NCBI RefSeq assembly: GCF_009914755.1
Contig: NC_060946.1
Length of the DNA stretch: 64,000 bases
DNA from: the human T2T-CHM13v2.0 reference genome, Homo sapiens
Strand: one strand, 5' to 3'
The first letter of the stretch is position 1. Every line of letters starts with the position of its first letter. Positions 2,978-26,795 of this stretch are shown here, one piece after another. The notes under the pieces were generated by a model. It had not been told where the DNA came from and made no database searches. It saw nothing but the letters and a program-made list of their open reading frames with translations. The position numbers were made by a program, and so were the translations under genes.

Positions 2978-3544
2978 TCACAGTGGAATCATCAAACGGA
3001 CTTCCTTCTCATAGATGTCAGGGATCATTCCCACTGGGGAACTGACCATGTGCACAGTGTTCTTGCCAAACAATTGGAACTCATAGTGGATGAGCTGCTC
3101 CCAAAAGCCGCTGTTGGGTCGGATGATGGGCCGGCATGACTTGGTCCACGTGTGGGCGTCCAGCAGGGACATGGCGTGGTACTTCATGAGGTAGGCGAGG
3201 CACAGGGCAGCTGAGCGGCTCACACCAGCAGCACAGTGCAGCAAAGTACGGCCCTGCTTCATCTCCACGCTGTGGATATGGTCAGCAATAGGGTCAAAGA
3301 AGTCACAGAGACGTGAGTTAGGGGAGTCAGCCACAGGTACCTGCATGTACTGGATATCCTCATACAAGGTGTTCACTACCTCCACTGAGACATTGATGAC
3401 CATGGTGATCTGGTTGCTAGACAGCATGAGCTTGTTGTTGGCGGCCACACCATTGCTGATATACAGGCTTTTGGTTATCTGCGAGAGGCCGCTGACTGAG
3501 GGCTGCCGGAACTGAACTGGGAAGGCACACGAGGGTGCTGTCAT
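2978..3544 (-). CDS. DUSP18: Dual specificity protein phosphatase 18 (188 aa, single coding exon)
   Basis: ORF MTAPSCAF...RLMIPL with the atypical-DUSP catalytic loop LHCAAGVSRS, acid-loop VADSP and the RPIIRPNSGFWEQL motif. ATG is at 3544-3542; the track's 3547 start is a TTG. Confidence 0.97.
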   Translation of the reverse strand: MTAPSCAFPVQFRQPSVSGLSQITKSLYISNGVAANNKLMLSSNQITMVINVSVEVVNTLYEDIQYMQVPVADSPNSRLCDFFDPIADHIHSVEMKQGRTLLHCAAGVSRSAALCLAYLMKYHAMSLLDAHTWTKSCRPIIRPNSGFWEQLIHYEFQLFGKNTVHMVSSPVGMIPDIYEKEVRLMIPL

Positions 3545-3640: not shown

Positions 3641-4498
3641 GTTTAGAGGGCAGGTGCCCAGAGGGCCAATTCCAGGGGATCCCTGGGAAATGGATGGATA
3701 GGCTTATAGCATTCCCCAAGGCAGTCCTCTGACCATCACAGCAGAATTACCCAGCAAACTCATTTAAAGTACAGATACCCAGGTCCCTCTCCAAACCCAC
3801 AGTCAGACTCTCGGGGTGAAGAGCATGAATCTGCATTTTCAGCATGCTTCTCAGGTGGTCTAATGTGCACTGCCCTATAGGACAAATGGCAAGTCCCCAA
3901 GTCTGGCACTTGAGGCCTCCCTTGAGGGGTCCCACAGCTCTAGTTGGGCAGATGACTTGTGTCCCTCAGCTGTGCCTTGGCCTGATTCTCCATTTAAGCT
4001 CACAGAGCCCTTTTCTTGCTGCTCTTCCAAATTCTCTCCTTCCTTCCAGCCCCTCTGAGTGGGAACCATTTGTACAGTCTTCCTCCTCAGTCTTCTGACT
4101 TTATGCCCAAATCATAAGGTCCTGAGCCAGTGGCATGGAACCAGAGCCCACTGTGCTGGCAGTCACTGAGGAGGCTGGTATAAGAGTAGGGAGGGTTCCC
4201 ATTTTCCCCCTCTAAGAACCATCTCTTTAAAGAGACAGGATATGCCCATGCGAAGCTGATGTCAAATACAAAGTCCTAAATTGTTAGACATGCTCCTGCA
4301 CCTTGCCTCTGAAGAAGGCCTGGGAAAGGGAGTGGCTGAAAGCTTCCTGGAAGCCAGCATAATGGGCACCACAGCAACCCCAGGGACAAGCACAGAGACA
4401 GCAGGGCCTTAGGAAGACCTGCCACACCTGCATCATGCTGCCTGCAGCAGAGCTGTGAAACACACCCCAGGGAGAGGCAGACCCCTTCCCTTCACCTG

Positions 4499-4638
4499 CT
4501 CGATAGGCTCAGTCGCCGCTAAGTAATTGGGGTAGGGGTTCAGCCGCAGATCTGCTTCCCGCGCCGCAGACCGTGCAGTCGTCGGTGCTCCTCAGGTGCG
4601 GCCTGGGTGCCCAGAGCATTCATTAGACTCTCGGACCC
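4499..4638 (+). repeat. 140-bp direct duplicate of 7751-7886 (3' part of pseudo-exon 1 plus donor)
   Basis: Hand alignment: about 11 substitutions and one 4-nt indel over about 136 bp (about 92% identity). Confidence 0.95.
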
Positions 4639-5149
4639 TCACTTTCTCAGTCTTAAACAAAGCTGCAAAAACCAGGACATCTTTATACATTCCGCTGAAA
4701 TAGGGGCATTTGGATTTAGATCACACCTTTCAAGGCCAAGTGGCAGTCTTCACCAGGCACGAGAAATGAGGAGCCAAAGTTTTGTTTCCCTGCTTAATAT
4801 ATTTCAGTGGCTATCCACTGTGAGGATAAGATGGAGCCACTTAGTTTGGCTGTCAAGGCCATTTGTGACCTGGCTCCTGCCTGTCTCTCCAGCCTCTTAT
4901 TAGGCTTCTCCATGCTCTGAAGGGCCTCAGGTGAACCGAGCCACTTACAGTTCCTTAGGGACAACCTGTCCTCTCCAGCCAGTGGCCTTTGCCCCTGCTG
5001 ATCTCTCAGTCTCTTTCCTTATGAACCCATCAGATCCTGATCTGGTCCATTCAGCAGAGGACTGCAGAAGTCTGAGGAGCCTTAAGATATCAACTTAAAG
5101 GTAACTGTTTTAAGGGAAATCTCCTTAGATCACACCCCTCCCTCACGTT

Positions 5150-5385
5150 TGACCAACTCTGCTCCAGGCTTTCTTAGCCCTATGTTCTCTCCTTCCTAAC
5201 ACTTACTGAAGACGTAGTTTTGCTCCGATCTGTCTGATTATTTGATTAATGTCTGTCTCCCCAAGAGACTGTGAGCCCTTTAGGGATATGATGGTGTCTG
5301 TCTTCACTCCCACTCTATCACCAACTAGTGCCAAGCGCTGTGTCCCCACAAGTAGGTGCTTGATAAATATTTGTTGAATGAAGAA
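5150..5385. mobile_element. L2 3' fragment
   Basis: agactgtgagccc...taggtgcttgataaatatttgttgaatgaa terminal motif. Confidence 0.75.
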
Positions 5386-5878
5386 ATGACTCCCAACAGC
5401 TATGACTCTGCCTTCTGAGAGGCTTTCTGGAAAGAATGAGTTCTCTGGCAGCGTGTCTCCAGAATTCCAGGGAGGGGCTGGGTGGGGATGGGGGTGGTTC
5501 TGAGGCTACTAAAGAGAAAGACCAAAGGTTGTATAGGCAAATCCTACCTGCCAATGCCCCAGACTCAAATGCATCAGGCTCATTCCCGGAAGGACAGAGA
5601 GGGCTGGCTTGCTACAGAGGTGATATGAAGGGCAAAGAAAAAGCCTCCTGAACCCAGATGGAAGTCTAAATGCTAAGGAATGTTCTGGATCCTCGTCATC
5701 AGAAAATCCATAGAGAAGTGAACTGATGTCCCCCCAAACCAGTGCCCAGTGGGTAACGGGAATAGAGGAATGTGCTGTTCATTATAGCCACTAAAAGTCT
5801 GCAGAAGTGACAATGCTCTTGCAGGTGAGGGTAGTGATGCGAGGAGTCATTTTCATGCTAGTTAAGAAATATCTATCA

Positions 5879-6272
<394 letters not shown>

Positions 6273-7000
6273 CTAGTGGGAGAAACAGATAGTAAACAGG
6301 CAATTACAGGCAGACAGAGCTTGAAAATAGGATAACAGTACCTACCTTAAAAGGATGTTGTGAAATTAAACGAGATAATCCACGTAAAGAGTTTTCTCAG
6401 GGCTTGGCATAGAGTAAGCCCTCTCAAAATGATAACTATTTTTCTCGCTTCTGATAGGGAAGTTAAAATGCAGGGCTCTGTGAAAGGGAAGTGTAAAAAA
6501 GATTTCTTCCAGGTCGGAGCCTAGGGAGTCGCAAAGACCACCTGAAGAAATCACAAAAGATCTAAAGAACGTTTAGCTTGAGAGGGAGGAGGAGAAAAAA
6601 ATAGCAACTCGGTAGCAGTTCAGCTTCACCACTTTACAGCCTATGAAGTATTTGGCTTCCCTCATCTGGTTCGATCTTCAAAGCAACCTAATCAGACCGG
6701 CGTCTAGAGTTAATATTTCCATTTTACAAAAGAGGAAAGTGAGACACAGCGCGGAAAAGGACTTGTTCAGAACGAGTCATAAAGCAAAGAAGCCGACCTT
6801 TATGGTCCATTATGTGTGGGAAAAATGAACAAACACCGCGGGGCGTTCGTGAAATACTAAGTTATAAACATGGAACAAAGTCCAAGAGTTAACGAGAGCG
6901 AAGCATCACTTCTAGGGGTGGGCCGGGTAGGTTTCCTAGGGGAGCTGGCATTGGAATAGGCTTCTTCGCCTGCTTAGTGTCAGGACCCCCAGGGTTTTAC

Positions 7001-7430
7001 CTCTCTCCTTCAGGCGGGTGGGCGGGTTCGCTCAGGAAGTAGCCGCTTGGGGAAGCCTTAGGCAAGGTTCTTCGGGAGAGAGACCCGTCATGATCCCGCA
7101 GCCTCAATCCCCGCTGGCCTAACGCTTTGGTTTCCATAGCAATGGGCTCGTCGCAGAAAGGAATAGCCTGTGCCGGGTCTTCAGAGAAATCCTGGCCTCG
7201 GCTCCACGCCCCTGAGCAGCCCCACCCTGGCTCAACCTGTTACCCGCCCTGCCGGCAAGCCGGGGTCACTGCAGTCCCCGTGGCGAAGCAGGGTCAGCTC
7301 AGCTCACCGCACCCCACTCCATCCAGCCCTGCCCATCTCTACGGCAACGGGCCGGGTCGCACCAGGGCTGCAGCCGAGAGACAGTCTCACCGCTTCCGTA
7401 GCCGCCCGGGCTCTGTGCGCATGTGCGACA
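7001..7430 (-). other. DUSP18: Probable non-coding exon 1 of DUSP18
   Basis: Lies in the CpG island just downstream (minus sense) of NRF1/GC-box motifs. Donor GAG|GTAAAA at 7001/7000; alternative CG|GTGAG donors at 7391/7390 and 7308/7307. TSS position is approximate. Confidence 0.6.
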
Positions 7431-7544
7431 CTCCCTCCCCGGCCCCGCCCCCTTATGCGTCTCCCAGGCAACGCGCCGCGCGGGGCTCCAAGTTCCGCCC
7501 AGGGACTAACTCCAGGTCTGCGCGCGTCCAACGAGCACGGCTCT

Positions 7545-7626
7545 CAACCGGCCTCCTGGCGCCCAACGACCATGGCTTCCAACCGGCCTCCGTGCGCCCA
7601 ACGACCATGACTCCCAACCGGCCTCC
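7545..7626 (+). repeat. 35-bp tandem repeat (about 2.3 copies plus a degenerate copy upstream)
   Basis: CAACCGGCCTCC recurs at 7545, 7580 and 7615; GCGCCCAACGACCATG occurs in both full units. Confidence 0.85.
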
Positions 7627-7660
7627 AGTTTCCAACTGTTTCTCGAACAGGGAAGCCGCC

Positions 7661-7843
7661 ATGACACAGCTGACTACGCCCTTGGTCACAGGGGACCTGA
7701 GATCCTCCACGATTTACGGGACCGGCGCCACCTCGGGCTCGAACCACCCTCTCGATAGGGCCGCCGCTAAGTAATCGGCGTAGGGGTTCAGCCGCACATC
7801 TCCTTCCCGCGCCGCGGACCGAGCAGTCGTTGGTGCTCTTCAG
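7661..7843 (+). pseudogene. Exon 1 of an unprocessed C5orf52/4921536K21Rik-like pseudogene
   Basis: GCCGCCATG start; translates MTQLTTPLVTGDLRSSTIYGTGATSGSNHPLDR/(fs)RR*VIGVGVQPHISFPR/(fs)PRTEQSLVLF-S; donor TTCAG|GTGCGG, phase 2. Homology recalled, not searched. Confidence 0.8.
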
Positions 7844-9014
7844 GTGCGGCCTGGGTGCCCAGAGCCTTCGTTAGACTCTCGGACCCGCAAGGGAGCCCGA
7901 ACTCTTTCAGACTCGCTCTCCCTCAGCCGGACCTCGGCCCTTTTTCACACCCCAGGGGAGTCTGGATTTCTCATAGTCCTGGGCACCAGCCCCTTCCCAG
8001 TCTAGCTCTTGGGACTCCCTGAAGCCGGAACTCCCTCGCCTGGACTCCCGGGAGAACCTGGAATCCCCATCTCCAGTCCACATTTTCTCAGAATCTGTCC
8101 TAGCCCTTCAGTCTCCCAGGCATGACATCGTGTGGTCCCAGCGCCCTAGGTGGTGAGCTGTGACTCTCCTTAGAGCCTGGCGAGGCCGAGGTCCTCCCCA
8201 GCTCGAACCCATCCCACACTCCCCTTCTCAGCCTCTGTGTTCCCCAGTGGTCCTGGAAAAGCCCCCAGTTCCCTCTGCCTGGCCCCAATCCTCACAAACC
8301 CAATTACCCACGCTCCTTTCCATTCCATAACCCCCATCACTGCATCCTCCAGGCTCCCATCCATGGAGGACTTGAGGTGGAAAGCAATTTGGTTCAAAAT
8401 AACCATTATTTATTACTTGAAAGGGAATATTTCCAGTCGTTGCCAGCCTCCTCCCCTTCTAGTATTGGTAAATTTTTTGCACCACTGAGTGGGTGAAGAG
8501 TTTTATGCGTCTTTAAATGTTTTAAGGATTTTTTTAAAAAAACAAAAAACTCTCAGGATTTGGGGGACTTTTGTGTTTGAGCATCTTGATCTCTAAACCA
8601 GCTTTTTCCATCACCTCATACCTAGGCTATGCATAGAGGTCAGAAAAATGTAAATGAGAGATTGAGAAGTTGGATTGTTCATACTAGTTTGTAAATATGA
8701 AAACATTCACAACACTCCAGTTCCAAATAGGCTGAAAATGCATTAGAAAAACTAGTCCTTCAATATTTTTTATCCTTCTACAGTTGTCTTTTTTGACCCA
8801 ATTATAAAAGTAGTGTACACTTATAGAAAAATGAGGACAGGCATGGTGGCTCACGCTTGTATTCCCACCACTTCACTTTGAAAGGCTGAGGCAGTTGGAT
8901 CACCTGAGCTCAGGAGTTCGAGACCAGCCTGGGCAACAGGGTGAAACCCCATCTCTACCAAAAATACAAAAAATTAGCCGGGCTTGGTGGCTCACCTGTG
9001 GTCCCAGTTACTCA

Positions 9015-9173
<159 letters not shown>

Positions 9174-9211
9174 TCACTGTTAACATTTTGGTGTATTTTG
9201 ATCAGAATCCA

Positions 9212-9214
<3 letters not shown>

Positions 9215-9262
<48 letters not shown>
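9215..9262. repeat. (TA)n microsatellite
   Basis: About 24 perfect AT units. Confidence 0.97.
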
Positions 9263-9265
<3 letters not shown>

Positions 9266-9561
9266 ACAACATGCTTATACTTAAAAAAGATACATCACAA
9301 AAGTTCACTTTTTAGTAACCTGCTTTTTTCTCCCATCTAATATACCACCCGTCTATGTTTCATACACAATTACATGTATTTTATTTTATGACATACCAAA
9401 ATTTATTCAATTGCTTCCATACTGTAGATTTTGTTTCCGCATTTTAGAAAGAAAATATGAACAATTTTTTTTTTGAGACAGAGTCTAGCTCTGTGGCCCA
9501 GGCCCGAGTGCAGTGGCACAGTCTTGGCTCACTGCAACCTCTGCCTCCTGGGTTCCAGTGA

Positions 9562-9753
<192 letters not shown>

Positions 9754-10224
9754 TGATCCTGAAGAATTATTTTTAAATGGGCAAAACCATTTAAAGGTAT
9801 TTATTTGTAAGACTACTTCATGGTGTAACCAAATTATCAAAAAGTGAAAATGCAGTGCTTAGAAGTATATCCACTCTTCAGCATTTCCTCATTTTGACCA
9901 GATTGTTATATTTTCACCTGGAGTACCTAGCTCCATTCTACCCCACCCCACCCCATGTTTCACCTCACCTTTCAGAGCCTCCTAAAACCCCTGTCCACCC
10001 CACACCTCCCTATTCTAAATTTTCCCCAAACCTTCTTCTGGAATTCCCCTATTAACCAGCCTAACATCTGTCCAAACTCTTCACTTTTATTTCTCCCTGC
10101 TCTGATCTATACTCCCCCAAGCCCCCGCCTCCCAGATCCCCTTTAGGCACAGGGTCTAGAGCAAGTGCTCCCCAAGCTAAACACCTCTCAAATTCATCCT
10201 TCGAACCCTACTCTACAACTTTTA

Positions 10225-10737
<513 letters not shown>

Positions 10738-10891
10738 TTACTCCCTTGCTTCTCTGAAAATTGTAACAGAGCTGCACTTGTCCTAAGATACCCGGGGAAG
10801 CCTCAGCCACTCCCCCAGGACCCTGTCAAATCTGCTCTGGCCCTGGCCTCAGCCATCTGTAACCTGTGTCACCTTTCCCTCCCCGCTCCAG

Positions 10892-11006
10892 CTTAATGAT
10901 TCCAGTGAAGCAGCAGTGAAAAATTTTTTACTCATATAAAAAGAGCAGTTTATCTTGGGTGGGTTTTTATGACAAGCTCATAGCACAACGACTCCATGAG
11001 GTGCAG
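10892..11006 (+). pseudogene. Exon 2 of the C5orf52-like pseudogene
   Basis: Acceptor cctttccctccccgctccAG|C and donor CAG|GTAAAG are intact. Translates S-LM/(fs)SSEAAVKNFLL[+7 nt]KSSLSWVGFYDKLIAQRLHEVQ; phase 2 at the start matches exon 1. Confidence 0.8.
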
Positions 11007-12661
11007 GTAAAGTAGCCACAAGCTTTTGCATTAGAGGGTGTTAGTGGCTTGACCCATATTCATTTCATTCTCTCTATATCCTGGGGGATCATAAAGGTGA
11101 TAGGAAGTCCCCAAGGTGCTCTAAGGCAGGCCCCGTTTTACAGAGGAGGCAATTGACACTCAGGGTTACTGACTTGCCCAAGGTGTCACACCTGTTCCTA
11201 GGCTAAGGAGGCTAGAAAGACTCCATGTCTCTTGGTTTTGTTTTTGTTTTTGTTTTTCCTGAAAGCACATTATCTCTCTAGGGAACCCATGAATGGATTC
11301 TTATTTTCTCCCATACAAAGTCTTGGGTTCTAGGCTGGGCGCGGTGGCTCATGCCTGTAATCCCAGCACTTTGCGGGAGGCAGGACGGTCACTTGAGGTT
11401 AGGAGTTTGAAATCAGCCTAGTCAATGTGGCGAAGCCCCGTCTCTACTAAAAATACAAAACTGATCTGGGCATGGTGGTGGGTGCCTGTAATACCAGCTA
11501 CATGAGAGGCTGAGACATGAGCATTGCTTGAACCGGGTGGTGAAGGTTGCAGTGAGCTGTGATAGTACTCCAGCCTGGGCAACAGAGCAAGACTCCGTCT
11601 CAAAAAAAAAAACAAAAACAAAAAAACAAACAAGCAAAAATAAATAAATAAAACCCCCAAAAAACTAAGGTCTTGGGTCCTAGAGTTTGAATCAGCATTA
11701 ACAGCATCTTGTCAGTTTTTTCCTTTGGGGATTATCCCCATTTTCCAGATGAGAACTGAGGCTCTTCTCCCACTTTTTGCTTATGGACAGGTAAGAGTTT
11801 GACTCAGGCTTACTCAAAAGCCTGAGTGCTGTCACCTACTGTTCCCATAGACCCTAATTGATGAACTCATTAAACCTGTCCTTAGGGCCTGCTTGGGACA
11901 GCTACTGTGTTGGGTGCTAGGAAGAGACACATGAAAAAGATGGACACCAATAACATACTCATTTTTTCAAACAGAGCAGGAAGCCCAGGGTTGAGCTTCT
12001 GCCCCTTCTTGACTCTGTTGACTTCTCTCCATGTTCCAGGGTCAAGTCTGGATGGGCCCACAGGATTCTAACATCAAAAACAGTTGGAGATCCTTAAGAG
12101 ATGGTGCCAGATCCTCTTGAAGGTCACAAAGACAAAAGCAGAGCAGAGACCTGGGCATTTCTGCCTCTGCTAAACTTCCAATGGTGGGATGTAGTGGAAC
12201 TAGATGGGCAGGCCAGCTTTGTGTGACCTTGGGTGAATCACACTTCCTCCAGACTCTGCTTTCTCATTTGTAAAAATAGGATCTATTAAGATCCTCTCAG
12301 TGGCAGGTAATATAAACTGAACTTGAACTAGTTCAAGCAAAATAGAGAAGTTGGGTTTACATAATCAAGGATGGATAGGGCACAGTCGCCAATGTTTTAG
12401 GGGAGAGAAGCCAGGGGCTGTACTACCACCAGGTATGTCTTCCATTCTGTCTTCATTGTCTTTATATTGTGTCTCGTCTCGTCCCGTCCCATCCCGTCCC
12501 ATCCCGTCTCGTCTGTTTGAGACACGGTCTCACTCTTGCCCAGGCTGGAGGCCAGTAGCATGAGGCTCACTGTAGCTTCAACCTCTTGGGTTCAAGCAGT
12601 CCTCCCACCTCAGCCTCCCAGGTAGCTGGGATTACAGGCATATGCCACCATGCCTGGCTAA

Positions 12662-12808
<147 letters not shown>

Positions 12809-13204
12809 TGAACACCAGTATCATTATCAGGCTGGCTGAACCTGGGGAGCAGAGCCACAGGAAACCTTGGCCTGTAGACCACAAGAAGTACTTCCACTGC
12901 TGCTCCAGTTAGACAAATCCTGAGGAAGGACTCCAGTTGGCCCCAGTTGGTTCATGGGCCCATCCCTGTTTTAATCACTGTGGCCAGGTGGTGTGGGGTA
13001 TTCTGAGTGGCCCACGATAGGTTCGGGGCCAACTGGGTGGGGAATGTCGTACACCTTAGGTGGGGCAAGGAACTGTGAACTACTCTTAACTGGAAGCTCC
13101 TGAGTTGGCTTTATGTATACCTGAGGGCTGTGCCAACTTTCAGCTGTCCAGAAGCTTCCTTTTACTTTTTTTTATTTTTTTATTTTTTATTTATTTATTT
13201 TTGA

Positions 13205-13498
<294 letters not shown>

Positions 13499-13567
13499 TA
13501 ATGCCCACTTTTTACAAATAAATAGACTCCCTGTGAGTCAAAGTATTTATGGAATGAATATAGTGTG

Positions 13568-13770
13568 GAGAGAGCTTTAGAGAAGAGCAATAAGGAGATC
13601 AGCCACTAATGAAGATCAGACCACCTGATAAAAACTTTATGACAGACCAGCTCAGAAAGCTGGGGCACTGGAGACGGGAATCCATGAACATCCACCAGTA
13701 CTTGGATAACATTTGTGTATACCAGGAATAGTTGAAACTCCAGTCTCCCAAGAAAGACCAGCCACTCTAG
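13568..13770 (+). pseudogene. Exon 3 (terminal) of the C5orf52-like pseudogene
   Basis: Translates RALEKSNKEISH**RSDHL/(fs)FMTDQLRKLGHWRRESMNIHQYLDNICVYQE*LKLQSPKKDQPL*. Acceptor is degraded; AATAGA at 13861 may be a decayed poly(A) signal. Confidence 0.78.
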
Positions 13771-14545
13771 TACTGGCAAAGGGATCTGCCCCAGGGCCAC
13801 GATGACACTAGTGTGATCAGAGGAGAACTAGAAAATAGCCAGGCTACATGACTGTAAAACAATAGACAGAGACCAGCAGACAGCAGGGCATAACAAATCC
13901 TCAGCAATCCTCATATTCCTTCCCCATGCGTCCCCTCTATTCTGGTGAAGGAGGTCCTGATAGTCCCATGGATGCTTACCTCAAAAAGGCAGGATCAAGC
14001 TAGCTTCCATGGTTAAGGTGAAGATTGACCTCTCGGTGCCCACTTGTCTGAGGTGACATGCTAGGTGAGGTGTGCCGGGACAGTGGTACCTTAGATGGGA
14101 AGGCCCCAGTAATGCCACTGCCTGGCATTCCAGTGGTAAGGAGGTGTGGGGGAGGCATCAGAAGGACCTGGCTTAGGTGCTGTATCTACCACCAGTCAGC
14201 CGTGTGGCCTTGTCACCTCCTTGAGCCTCCGTTTCCTTATCTGAAAGAATGTTGCAGTAGTAAGGGAACCTACCTCCAAGGTCTGGCGTGAGGATATAAA
14301 GTGCTCAGCCTAGGACTCATCATTTCCAGTGACTGTCATCATGGTGGCTTCCAGTGGCCTTCCAGTGGTCCCCACTCCCCGTTCTGCCTGCTCCAGACGA
14401 CACCCTGATAGTCCCCACATTGTACTTTTATTTGTGAAGACCATTTATCTGGAATGCCTCTTTAGCTCTCTCTTCATCCTTCAAGGTTTGTCTCAATGCC
14501 ATTTCCTACACAGCATTTTCTTTTTTTGTTCTTTGGTTTTTTTGA

Positions 14546-14914
<369 letters not shown>

Positions 14915-15003
14915 TGAACTTGGATTACTTGTGGTTCCATTCTGCCTTGCATAGTAGCTGTTTGAGTATCTGTCCTGGCTCCTGATTAGATTGTACACTC
15001 TTT

Positions 15004-15345
15004 TATTGGGGTGATCAGACCCAACACCAGGTCCTGGGGGCGACAAAGTCTGGCGGAGTCAAAGGAATGAGAAAAAAACAGTTTGAAAGAGAAAGTGGGA
15101 ACAGAGGGTCATGGCGAGTGTGGAGGCTGCGAAGGCCCCGAGCTCTGGGAGCACGCGCTATTTATTGGTGCTCAAACAAAGAAACAGGTGGTGAGGATGT
15201 GGGGGTTGAAACAGTGTATCGAGTGAATGAGAAACATATGGCTGCTTGAGATAATGGGAGTGCCAGAAGCAAGGGGCTGGCAAGTCTAGCAGACATGCAA
15301 GCCCTGCCTCACCTGCTCTCCCAACACTCAGTGCTTCTCCCAACA
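15004..15345 (-). mobile_element. 3' LTR (LTR14A-like)
   Basis: About 90% identical to 19153-19500 by eye; preceded by PPT AAAAAAGAGAAGGGGGAGGCA (15366-15346). Confidence 0.9.
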
Positions 15346-16053
15346 TGCCTCCCCCTTCTCTTTTTTGTAAAAACCGCCACAGCTATCATTATTACTAGCA
15401 TAAGGTGGCCTCTTTTTAAAATTGAGCAAGGCAATTGCAGGCTGTGTAGCGCTTAATTGCCGGTTGGTGATCCAGCTTCATTTTTCTTAGCCCTTATTCA
15501 AAATGGAGTCGCCCTGGTTTGAATGCTTCCTACGTATCTCCCCTTTCTCTTTTACAAGAGGACCCTTAATCCTAGGGGTTGCAGAAGGATGAAGGTCCGT
15601 CTTCTGTAACTTCTTCATGCTGAATAGGGGCAATGATACTCCTGCCTACCTATTAGGGTCTCTTGTATTCAGGGTAGAGAGGAGTTCAGTCAGAAAGCAT
15701 TGGTCCATTAAGCATCTACAGGTAAAACCTTGGCACTCCAGCAGTTTCTCAGCAAGGCTCGTACTGGGGGAACCCAGTCCATGGTTGTACACATCTTGAG
15801 GGCACCTACACGGTTTGTTCATCTCCTGCAAAAACACAAGCATACCCTCACCCCCACGTTAGTAAATCTACTGAAACAGAAGCAAAAACTTCTGTGGCTG
15901 TAGCCTCGAGGCATGCCATTGCGGAAGCATTTGTAACTCAGCTTCGGCCTCTTTGGTTAATTACCACGTGGTGGAACTTACCATTGATAAGGAGAAGCAA
16001 GCCCCTTACAACAGAAGGCACAGACGAAGCAAATCCAGACTTAAAAGCAATCC

Positions 16054-16560
16054 TTAAACCTTCAATTTGCACTGTACAGGTGGGTCCACTAGATGCTGTG
16101 GTTCATGATAGATCTTCAGATGTTTGGTGGGCACCCACACAGGCACCTGATTGTCACCTGGAGAGACACAAGCAAATCCTCTTCCCCATAAAATTATCTT
16201 TCCTTTTCCCAGCGCTTTGTGCATCCCTCCACCACATATCTTGTCCAACCTTTTTATTTGCCTTTTGTCTTGTCAGGTGTTGTTCAGCTGCAGTCATGGG
16301 TTGAATCACAGCATTAACAGCCCTTAAATCTGTTAACATTCTCCATTTCCCTGATTTTTTCTTAATGACAAATACAGGATAATTCCAAGGGGAGAAAGTA
16401 GGCTCTATATGTCCCTTTTGCAAATGTTCCTGCACCAGTTCTTTTAAAGCCTCCAGTTTTTCCTGTTTCAGTGGCCATTGCTCCACCCAAACCAGTTTGG
16501 CCGTTAGCCAAACAAGAGGAATGGGAGCCGGAGCCTCAACAATGGCCGCTCCTAAAAATG
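16054..16560 (-). pseudogene. HERV-K pol remnant: RT N-terminus fused to integrase C-terminus
   Basis: WVEQWPL...[33 protein letters not shown] runs directly into TAAEQHL...WWRD...[11 protein letters not shown]...WVPTKHLK. Confidence 0.88.
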
Positions 16561-17389
16561 ACACCCCAATCCGGTCCAATCTGTTTGCCTTTTTAATTCT
16601 AAAGGTTCTGGTTGGCCATTTTTATCTTTTCCTAGTCCTTTTCCTGGGCAACATCCCATATTTCTCATCATTTGTCCTCTATTATTACTATATTGATCCA
16701 TAGGAATAGATATTTCAGCATCCCATTGTTGCAATAAGTCTCTACCCCATAAATTGACAGGAATAGGTGTAAATGATAGGCTGAAATGTCCCTTCCTGAC
16801 CATCTGGCCCTTGACATGGTAAAATCAAAGAACTTTGAAAAACTTCTGAGGCAGCTCCTACTCCAGCAATACCAATGGATGCCTTTTGCTTAGGCCAGTG
16901 CTGGGGCCATTGATTTATAGCAATAATAGAGACATCAGCTCCAGTTATCTACTAGTCCTTCAAAATCTTTTCCCTGAATAGTTACTGTGCAAATAGGTCT
17001 TTTGTCAGACACTTGATTAACCCAATACACAGCCTTTCCTGGTGGATTAGTATTACCAAAGCCTCCTGTTCTTTTCACTGTACTCTTCCTAGTTTTATGT
17101 AAGGTAACAGCAACAATTGAGCAATCATTTTTCCTGGGGAGGCAGACCACGGAGTCGAGGAACTAATAACTAATTTAATTTCTCCAGTATAATCAGAGTC
17201 GATTATTCCCATATGTACAGTAACACCTTTTAAATTCAGACTAGACCTTTCAAATAATAGACCTACTGTTCCTGAGGGTAAGGGTCCCCTAACTCCCGTG
17301 GGGACCTTTGGTGGCTCCCCAGGAAGTAAGGAGATGGGAATTGTGCTGTAGACATCTATGGCAGCACTGCCTGCTGAGGCGGGGGACAA
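16552..17389 (-). pseudogene. HERV-K pro remnant (dUTPase-protease-G-patch)
   Basis: AGSAAID and GIIDSDYTGEIK (dUTPase); FEGLVD and VNLWGRDLLQQW (protease); GKGLGK (G-patch). Confidence 0.9.
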
Positions 17390-18996
17390 CTGTTGTACGT
17401 TTGTAAGGGTACTGGCTGTGCCGGGTATGCCTTGGTTTGTTGAGGGGCTCGAGGCGGGCCCCTCTTCCCATTTCCCGAAAGAGGTTGTCCATCTTTGCTA
17501 AATTTATAATGACACTGACTTTCCCAGTGATTGCCTTTCTTACACCGGGGACATACACCGGGACTTTTCTGTTGATTGATGGTAGTTTTTGCCTTTTGAT
17601 TTCCTTTTCTACATTCCTTTCTTGTGTGTCTAAATTGCCCACAATTAAAGCAAGATCCTGAGAAATGGGGCATATTCTTTCCTACTCTTAAACCAGCCAT
17701 AGTCTGATCTAAAAGAGTAGCCTTATATAAGTTACCTCCAATGCCATCGTAAGCCTTAATATATTCAGCTAAATAAGCCTTCCCTCTCAGGGGTCAAATA
17801 GCAGTTTGACACTCTGCATTAGCAGTATCGTATGCACGAAGCTGTGTTACAACATCCTGTGCTGTTTTATCAGTTATGGCTTTATACACAGCCTCTTGGA
17901 GTCAAGCAATAATATCAATATATGGTTCTTTGGGTCCTTGTCAGACAGAACTGAAAGAGGGATATTTTTCCCTTGTAACATTTATCCTTTCTCATGCCTG
18001 TAAGCACACAAAGTGCAGCTAAACAATGGCAACATCCTTCATTACTGCTTGATTTTCTAATCGACCCCAGTTGGGGCCAACTCCCATTAACCGTTCAAAG
18101 GAAACAGGCACAGGTGGCTGCACTTGTGTGTTTTCCCTTGCCTGAGTTTGAGCTTCATCAGTCCACCAAGTTTTAAACTGTAAATACTGAGACGGAGTGA
18201 GAACAGATTTTGTCAACGTATCCCAATCATATGGTATTAATTTATTATCAGAGCCATATTTTTAAAGTTTGCACAAAAGGAGGGTTCGGTCCGTATTGAC
18301 TAATGGCGTCCTTCAATTCCTTTAGTAACTTAAAAGGAAAAGTAGCCCAATTAGCTATATTAGCCCTGCCTCCCTACTGGATTATAGTAACGGGAAATTG
18401 CCATGCTTCAAGGTCTCCCTCAGCTCTAGCTTTTTGAATAGAATTTTGTATAGCACCACCAATTGCTCCAGTTTTAATGTTGCAACTACAGAAGCAGTAA
18501 GTTTTTCGGCTAATTTATTTTCTTGCCCATTAAAGGGAGAGAGAGGAGGTGGCCATTCACTTAATTCAGCAGGTGGAGCCGACAGGCTAGTAAAACATAC
18601 TTTTTTCAGTTTTCCTTTCTTTCATCTCCTCCGGTAGCTGTTCCTCACACTCAGAATCTGAAGTTAGTTTTTTACACTTGTCCTCCTCTTCCTCATCTGA
18701 ATCTGCCTCATGATCTGTTTGAAATGGCTTAAGAGCTGCCTTTATTAGCACCCACATTGACCAAACGGAAACTAGAACTTCTGCTCCCTCTTTATATGCC
18801 TTTTTAAAGTCTCCCCCAGTTCTCTCCCATTTATTCAACTCCATAGTCCCTTGTTCAGGAAACCATGGGCAAAACTGCTTTACTGTACTAAAGAGTGATT
18901 AACAAATTGTGAGTACTAACTTTCATGCCCCCCTCTTTGTAATAAATGCTTTAAGAAATCTAAATAAGCAGAATGTCTGCTTTCACTTTGTCCCAT
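17356..18996 (-). pseudogene. HERV-K gag remnant (frameshifted)
   Basis: MGQSESRHSAYL myristoylation-type start at 18996; matrix CPWFPEQGT; two zinc knuckles CFNCGQFRHTRKEC and CPRCKKGNHWESQC. Confidence 0.9.
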
Positions 18997-19129
18997 TGTT
19001 ACCCTGGTTCTTCCCAGTGCTCAGCTTTCCTGCCGAGCTTCTTTTAGACGTTCGACGTTCTTGGGTGTCCTGTGACAATGTGTCCTCCGCTTTCACATGC
19101 TCTAGTGTTCCTTCACCGGGGTCTTTGTC

Positions 19130-19148
19130 GCCCCACGTTGGGCAGCCA
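19130..19148 (-). promoter_or_regulatory. Primer-binding site for tRNA-Lys(CUU)
   Basis: TGGCTGCCCAACGTGGGGC versus canonical TGGCGCCCAACGTGGGGC (one extra T). Confidence 0.85.
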
Positions 19149-19152
19149 GGAA

Positions 19153-19500
19153 TGTTGGGGTGATCAGACCCAACACCAGGTTGTGGGGACGACGAAGTCT
19201 GGTGGAGTCAAAGGAATGAAAAAAAAGACAGTTTGAGAGAGAAAGTGGGACCAGGGGTCATGGCGAGTGTGGAAGCTGCAAAGGCCCTGGAGCTCTGGAA
19301 GCCCACGCTATTTATTGATGCTCAAACAAAGAAACAGTTGGTGAGGATGTGGGAGTTGAAAGGAAACAGTGTATCAAGTGAATGAGAAACATATAGCTGC
19401 TTGAGATAATGGGAGTGCTAGAAGCAAGGAGCCAGCAATTCTAGCAGACATGCAACCCCTGCCTCAGCTTCTCTCCCAACACTCAGCTTTTCTCCCAACA
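19153..19500 (-). mobile_element. 5' LTR (LTR14A-like)
   Basis: TGTTGGG...CCCCAACA termini; AATAAA at 19316-19311; followed by the PBS. Confidence 0.9.
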
Positions 19501-19612
19501 CTGTTTGAAGGCAGGGACCAAGGATCCTCCAAGATTCAGTTCAGGCCTCTTTTCTTCTTTGATGCCAACAGCTGGCCCCAGTAGAAAAGGCCATTCTTTC
19601 CTGTGCTTCTGA

Positions 19613-26795
<7,183 letters not shown>

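What the first reader, a model, noticed from the sequence alone, without database searches (positions are those of the whole stretch)
4499..4638. 140-bp exon-1 duplicate records the order of gene inactivation
4499-4638 is a direct copy of 7751-7886 (about 92% identical) that I do not recognise as a known repeat. Both copies share the in-frame TAA (CGC CGC TAA) and the 1-nt deletion at CCG CG- CCG, but only the 7751 copy lacks 4 nt (CTCA). The 4499 copy keeps the frame DRLSRR*VIGVGVQPQICFPR. Inferred order: stop and first frameshift, then duplication, then the 4-nt deletion. No poly(A) tail or TSD, and intron sequence is included, so a DNA-templated event is likely.
Basis: partly seen in the sequence, partly recalled or inferred. 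Interest (0 to 1): 0.7.

Follow-up and report, generated by a model that had tools for sequence, protein, structure and literature searches.

The report
Small copy timestamps a dead gene
A 149-base piece of a broken, unannotated human gene sits copied 3 kb away and shares two of its breaks but not a third, which likely orders those breaks; the working gene (C5orf52) is on another chromosome, likely moved there in an ancestor of monkeys and apes, so a published "gene lost in long-lived mammals" was probably relocated rather than lost in humans.

Summary
The duplicate is real: 4493-4641 copies 7745-7889 (131 of 145 aligned bases identical, plus one 4-nt gap). The genome search found one other match, C5orf52 exon 1 on chr5. 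Both chr22 copies share the TAA and the 1-nt deletion; only 7745-7889 lacks the 4 nt. It places only 3 of about 10 disabling lesions, so it does not give the order of gene inactivation.

The larger story: window 7607-13770 is an unannotated dead parent of C5orf52, at the position the gene holds in mouse and cattle (between DUSP18 and OSBP2). An 18.5-kb DNA duplication (5461-23924, K2P 12.8%) put the working copy on chr5, probably on the anthropoid stem. PMC6842137 lists the mouse gene as lost in long-lived mammals; the pattern in its supplement follows anthropoids and fits relocation.

The small copy is most likely a local templated insertion; an RNA template is not excluded. RefSeq uses it antisense as a DUSP18 5'UTR exon. 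These are ordinary processes in a tidy case that I did not find in print.

The parts
4493..4641 (+). Copy A: 103 nt of exon 1 (4493-4595) and 46 nt of intron 1 (4596-4641) of the dead C5orf52 parent; edges uncertain by a few bases
7745..7889 (+). Copy B: the source segment, inside the CpG island and the RefSeq enhancer 7512-7901
   Evidence: annotation
4520..4522 (+). Shared TAA in A (7768-7770 in B); Gln in capuchin, baboon, snub-nosed monkey and tarsier, so likely one C>T from CAA
4562..4563 (+). Shared 1-nt deletion (7810/7811 in B)
7759..7760 (+). 4-nt deletion found only in B (A keeps 4508-4511)
7607..7843 (+). Pseudogene coding exon 1 (ATG at 7607 matches the capuchin and colugo start, ATG at 7661 the human chr5 start); also a 24-nt in-frame deletion after 7724
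10892..11006 (+). Pseudogene exon 2: 1-nt deletion near 10898 and 7-nt insertion 10934-10940; splice sites intact
13567..13770 (+). Pseudogene exon 3: acceptor removed by a deletion of about 117 nt, three small indels near 13608-13627 (placement ambiguous), TAG at 13729-13731; meets the Pfam DUF5528 cutoff
5461..23924 (+). Segment duplicated to chr5:158,188,859-158,203,488, which holds the intact C5orf52 and an orphan DUSP18 exon 1; 1348 mismatches in 11,534 aligned sites
4496..4662 (-). RefSeq alternative DUSP18 5'UTR exon (short form 4496-4602). The donor is chimeric (GTG from the copy, AAG from the flank); the long form carries two upstream ATGs that B lacks (ORFs of 27 and 36 codons)
   Evidence: annotation
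4461..4490 (+). Left flank of A with a 12-nt exact match to 7946-7957 and a 9-nt match to 7990-7998; possibly part of the insertion (suggestive only)

Best explanation
4493-4641 is a 149-bp direct copy of the exon-1/intron-1 junction of a broken, unannotated C5orf52 paralogue on chr22, likely made by local templated copying during break repair after that gene had already gained a stop codon and a 1-nt deletion. Steps: (1) the ancestral gene lay head to head with DUSP18 (shown for mouse and cattle from published coordinates). (2) An 18.5-kb DNA duplication put a copy with its promoter on chr5 (homology shown; direction shown by synteny and the orphan DUSP18 exon 1; timing on the anthropoid stem inferred). 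(3) The chr22 parent decayed (about 10 disabling lesions shown). (4) A 149-bp piece was copied 3.25 kb upstream into DUSP18 intron 1, roughly 20-35 million years ago with wide error (order shown by parsimony; date and repair mechanism inferred). (5) The source then lost 4 nt (shown). (6) The copy decays neutrally (inferred) and is spliced antisense into minor DUSP18 5'UTR isoforms (annotation); a function is untested and probably slight.
For: Only 3 matches in the genome. Informative sites 21 (A+B) versus 4 and 7; binomial p 0.0009 and 0.013. Of 97 homologous proteins, 95 have a residue at the TAA codon (2 gaps), 93 keep the Pro after the frameshift site, and 0 carry the frameshifted peptide. 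Codon 39 is Arg in 11 of 11 species shown but CTC (Leu) in both A and B, left of the 4-nt gap. Duplication blocks are collinear at 82-87% identity. Cattle order DUSP18, C17H5orf52, OSBP2 on chr17; mouse 4921536K21Rik ends 142 bp from Dusp18; the macaque symbol is C6H5orf52. The capuchin protein shares the chr5 'TFG' C-terminal frameshift, TEQ and DNRI, which chr22 and tarsier lack. The tree puts chr22 as sister to capuchin plus catarrhine chr5 genes (90/86). An AluS-like element is shared by both duplicates and another is chr22-only (subfamily motifs recalled).
Against: No orthologous primate DNA could be read, so presence of A in other species and the empty site are untested; a protein search with A's open frame found nothing (11 candidates, none scored). 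No significant junction microhomology or target-site duplication (null 17-22%). The capuchin placement is not starred, and AU tests do not reject the alternatives (p 0.099 and 0.42). The date ratio is 0.44 (0.24-0.70) on the local rate but 0.81 (0.39-1.27) on the duplication-wide rate. The CpG-decay excess in A (6 of 10 versus 1 of 7) is not significant (p 0.13). The left-flank match hints at a more complex event than one clean copy.
Confidence: 0.78

Rival explanations
1. Same order of lesions, but the insertion is compound: a multi-step template switch or a reintegrated small DNA circle (about 7745-7998), giving pieces 7946-7960, 7987-7998 and then 7745-7889 in permuted order. This refines step 4 and does not replace the rest.
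For: A's left 60 nt match the 300 nt downstream of B better than 99.5% of 1216 control windows under two scoring schemes (0.0049, 0.0058) and 96.6% under a third. Same strand, 57 nt past B's end.
Against: Found post hoc; four flank comparisons were made, which gives about 0.02-0.13 after correction. It needs a 25-nt gap. The other three comparisons with B were at chance level.
Confidence: 0.25
2. The copy was made from RNA (an unspliced or read-through transcript of the CpG-island promoter), as a 5'- and 3'-truncated reverse-transcribed patch at a break.
For: B lies in an unspliced RefSeq exon (SLC35E4 7140-8558). Intron-1 read-through protein models exist for the chr5 gene (P0002, P0006).
Against: No poly(A) tail (longest A run 5 nt, 25 nt away) and no target-site duplication. 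Landing 3 kb from the source in the same orientation is unlikely for a diffusing RNA.
Confidence: 0.1
3. A is older than the lesions and shares them through later gene conversion with B; in the strong form, a decayed A converted and killed B.
For: B-chr5 divergence over the tract is high (27 of 145 sites versus an 11.7% mean; binomial p 0.01). A lies just outside the duplicated segment, so chr5 cannot date it.
Against: 8 of 79 non-overlapping windows are as diverged, including neighbours at 7274-7556 that A does not cover (29 and 32 of 145). Of 10 polarisable coding differences, 5 arose on the chr5 side (read by eye). There is no older, more diverged rim around A. Even if true, the 4-nt deletion still follows the last exchange, because of the shared base at 4500.
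Confidence: 0.07
4. The segment is a dispersed repeat, or the 'lesions' are the normal state of intact orthologues.
For: None found. The genome search skips very common words.
Against: 3 matches only; the segment is not among the listed masked stretches; 0 of 97 homologues carry the frameshifted peptide; no Rfam match over A or B.
Confidence: 0.01

Closest known systems
C5orf52 / mouse 4921536K21Rik family (Pfam PF17666, DUF5528)
   Same: Three coding exons with matching splice positions; exon 3 scores 45.4 bits against a cutoff of 28.9; the tree places it inside the anthropoid clade (100/99).
   Different: About 10 disabling lesions and no RefSeq row. It sits at the ancestral position, while the intact human gene is on chr5.
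Gene relocation by DNA-level duplication with decay of the parent (class recalled; described for Drosophila in the listings)
   Same: Intron-containing copy with its promoter on another chromosome; the parent is dead at the syntenic site.
   Different: I found no account of this locus. The copy also took exon 1 of the neighbour DUSP18, whose donor is deleted on chr5.
Local templated insertions at repaired breaks (polymerase theta end joining, MMBIR; listings and abstract starts)
   Same: Short, near its source, no poly(A), no target-site duplication.
   Different: Fixed in the germ line and old; junction microhomology could not be shown without the empty site.
Exonisation of inserted DNA into a 5'UTR (best known for antisense Alu; recalled)
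   Same: Antisense use, alternative acceptors, non-coding exon.
   Different: The material is a pseudogene fragment and not a transposon; the donor is formed across the insertion junction.
'4921536K21Rik lost in long-lived mammals' (PMC6842137)
   Same: Same gene; that screen also finds no syntenic gene in human and capuchin.
   Different: Its supplement row has gene IDs for 4 of 4 non-anthropoid primates and 0 of 18 anthropoid columns, short-lived ones included. An intact paralogue exists on human chr5. C5orf52 is not mentioned in its text or 2 supplements.

Membership tests
C5orf52 / DUF5528 (as a pseudogene) | Match to PF17666 above the curated cutoff | tested here: met
   Exon 3 piece 45.4 bits versus 28.9; the exon 1 N-terminal piece and A's shifted frame did not match
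C5orf52 / DUF5528 (as a pseudogene) | Same exon structure as the intact gene | tested here: met
Duplicated (unprocessed) pseudogene at the parental site | Introns kept, reading frame broken, ancestral synteny | tested here: met
   synteny
Unitary pseudogene (true gene loss) | No intact paralogue in the genome | tested here: not met
   Intact three-exon ORF on chr5
Processed retrocopy (copy A) | Introns removed, poly(A) tail, target-site duplication | tested here: not met
   46 nt of intron kept; no tail; longest flank repeat 5 nt
DNA-templated repair insertion | Microhomology or small deletion at the junctions relative to the empty site | tested here: inconclusive
   Junction similarity is at chance level; the empty site is not available
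Interspersed repeat family | Many copies in the genome | tested here: not met
   3 matches, a lower bound; no Dfam library available
Reintegrated small DNA circle | Circularly permuted copy of the source | tested here: inconclusive
   Left-flank match p 0.005-0.03 before correction
Functional exonised 5'UTR element | Substantial inclusion and an effect on translation | not testable with these tools
   Only RefSeq exon rows and the uORF scan

The most novel reading that the evidence does not exclude
The insertion is a circularly permuted piece of CpG-island DNA: a roughly 250-bp circle from the dead gene reintegrated in the primate germ line, became fixed, and now supplies DUSP18 with a uORF-bearing 5'UTR exon that tunes its translation.
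Probability: 0.07. Interest if true: 0.6.

Novelty: new member of a known kind. Interest (0 to 1): 0.33.

Why it matters
It marks an unannotated human pseudogene and a probable anthropoid relocation of a gene expressed in ciliated or male germ cells (PMC12328211 passage). Synteny-based screens read this as a loss: PMC6842137 lists the mouse gene among 27 'meaningful' losses in long-lived mammals, although a working paralogue exists on human chr5. The small copy is an internal timestamp showing the parent was already broken before it was made, and an example of pseudogene debris becoming an exon of the neighbouring gene. No new mechanism is shown.

Tried and rejected
Target-site duplication or junction microhomology: the CCCTTCAC / CCCTCAC likeness is at chance level (null 22%, shuffle 17%). 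The empty site on chr5: the duplication starts 820 bp right of A, and the chr5 DNA fetched has no match to A's flanks. A or B in other primates through predicted proteins: 11 candidates, none scored; weak evidence. An N-terminally extended DUSP18 from the new exon: blocked by a TGA in A and a second TGA in exon 2. A conversion-inflated tract: not an outlier. Structured RNA: 6 Rfam matches in 4200-8600, all below gathering score, none over A or B. Literature: 4921536K21Rik 4 papers, C5orf52 15, H5orf52 3, relocation term sets 0 and 8, DUSP18/SLC35E4/pseudogene 15 of 27 listed, DUSP18 isoform terms 10 of 745 listed, none holding DUSP18. None of the titles or passages seen describes this duplication. 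The one held supplement of PMC2864566 has no mention. Supplements of gene-age and pseudogene catalogues, GENCODE and UCSC segmental-duplication tracks were not seen and may list the locus. Earlier scan findings were not available.

Full report
Observation. A search of the whole genome with A returned three matches from three candidates: A, B and chr5:158,190,756-894. The chr5 match translates to human C5orf52 exon 1, 100% identical to a named human protein.

What B is. tblastn with 8 intact family proteins maps three exons in the window, near 7607-7843, 10892-11006 and 13567-13770. Against the intact chr5 gene they carry about ten disabling lesions. Exon 1: TAA, 1-nt deletion, 4-nt deletion. 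Exon 2: 1-nt deletion, 7-nt insertion. Exon 3: loss of the acceptor, three small indels of ambiguous placement, and a TAG. There is also a 24-nt in-frame deletion in exon 1. RefSeq has no row for this pseudogene. Window 5461-23924 is collinear with chr5:158,188,859-158,203,488 in 11 blocks of 82-87% identity; K2P distance 12.8% over 11,534 sites. A lies 820 bp outside this segment.

Direction and age of the large duplication. In cattle the order is DUSP18, C17H5orf52, OSBP2 (table passage, PMC6558954). In mouse 4921536K21Rik (chr11:3,886,088-3,895,098; supplement row of PMC6842137) ends 142 bp from Dusp18 (3,895,240; table passage, PMC7988575). Rodent family members are labelled 4921536K21. 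The chr5 copy holds DUSP18 exon 1 with its donor deleted and no exon 2 nearby. So chr22 is the parent. The capuchin protein shares the chr5 C-terminal frameshift and two substitutions that chr22 and tarsier lack. A tree of 20 rows (18 of the 97 homologues, chosen by me for taxon spread, plus the two human loci, cut before the lineage-specific C-termini where a pattern matched) places chr22 as sister to capuchin plus catarrhine genes at 90/86. The alternatives are not rejected (AU p 0.099 and 0.42). An AluS-like element at about 10313 is shared and one at 5880 is chr22-only (subfamily motifs recalled). The supplement row lists syntenic genes for mouse lemur, sifaka, tarsier and galago and for none of 18 anthropoid columns; human and capuchin were required to lack it (species read from ID prefixes, recalled). 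An anthropoid-stem event, about 43-65 million years ago (split dates recalled), fits best. Missing annotation could also produce blank cells.

Order of lesions. Sites group A with B 21 times, A with chr5 4 times and B with chr5 7 times. Among all 97 homologous proteins retrieved, 95 have a residue at the stop codon and 2 a gap, 93 keep the next conserved Pro, and none has the frameshifted peptide. The codon is Gln in capuchin, baboon, snub-nosed monkey and tarsier, so TAA probably arose by one change from CAA. A and chr5 both keep the 4 nt that B lacks. Codon 39 is Arg in 11 of 11 species shown and Leu in both A and B, and it lies left of the gap, so shared history spans the gap and the deletion postdates the last copying or exchange. 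The copy cannot order the stop against the 1-nt deletion and says nothing about the seven or so lesions in exons 2 and 3. It gives only a latest date for the gene's death.

Date of A. The A-B distance is 0.44 (bootstrap 0.24-0.70) of the local distance to chr5, or 0.81 (0.39-1.27) of the duplication-wide distance. That suggests roughly 20-35 million years, with a range from about 10 million years up to the age of the large duplication. Six of 10 A-specific changes are CpG-type transitions against 1 of 7 in B (counted by eye; p 0.13), which fits methylation outside the island but is not significant.

Mechanism. There is no poly(A) tail and no target-site duplication. Short range and same orientation favour local templated copying at a break (inference; class known from the listings). 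Keeping intron sequence does not exclude RNA, since the region is transcribed unspliced. A's left flank matches 7946-7957 exactly over 12 nt and 7990-7998 over 9 nt; controls reach this score in 0.5-3% of 1216 windows, before correction for four post hoc comparisons. This may mean iterative template switching or a permuted circle, or chance. Gene conversion of an older copy is not needed: 8 of 79 windows are as diverged as the tract, although the tract does exceed the mean (p 0.01).

Present use. RefSeq places alternative DUSP18 exons at 4496-4602 and 4496-4662 on the minus strand. The donor reads CAG|gtgaag, with gtg from the copy and aag from the flank; the equivalent in B is AGG|gtggtt. The long form has two upstream ATGs absent from B, opening 27- and 36-codon ORFs. 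No in-frame extension of DUSP18 is possible. The main isoform already has five upstream ATGs, so the added effect may be small. Nothing here tests function.

Papers seen. PMC6842137: passages, section 6, part 1 of 7 of the text, one supplement row. PMC7988575, PMC6558954, PMC13152581, PMC11449919, PMC12328211, PMC12607924: passages only. PMC2864566: search of one supplement, no hit. All others: search listings and abstract starts only. I found no description of this relocation or of the small copy in those searches; catalogues in unseen supplements or browser tracks may hold it.

Verdict. Each process is of a known kind. The useful result is the probable relocation of C5orf52 and the correction it implies for a published gene loss.

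Noticed in passing
window 7515-7626: Three tandem copies of a 35-bp unit (79-81% alike), two of them with an ATG, including the ancestral start at 7607; chr5 has a single unit in which that ATG is gone.
   Followed up: partly
window 12371-12433; L004 9773-9835: The N-terminus of a gorilla C5orf52 model (P0003) maps to intron 2, downstream of exon 2, in both human loci: an out-of-order exon that may reflect a tandem copy in gorilla, a circular RNA or a model error.
   Followed up: no
L004 about 4060-4090 (chr5): The duplicated DUSP18 exon 1 lost its splice donor through a 24-nt deletion, leaving an orphan antisense exon upstream of C5orf52.
   Followed up: partly
L005 about 2990-3050 (chr5 exon 3): The intact chr5 gene has its own C-terminal frameshift (4-nt deletion) shared with capuchin, while the dead chr22 copy keeps the ancestral C-terminal frame.
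   Followed up: yes
window 14827-20188: About 5.4 kb present on chr22 but absent from the chr5 duplicate (collinear blocks join across it); an insertion on chr22 or a deletion on chr5.
   Followed up: no
window 23924-24558: The right end of the chr5 homology abuts two Alu elements on chr22, and the left end on chr5 abuts two Alus; the true breakpoints may be hidden by later insertions.
   Followed up: no
window 7274-7556: The bidirectional promoter region is about twice as diverged from chr5 (29-32 of 145 sites) as the duplication average (17 of 145).
   Followed up: partly
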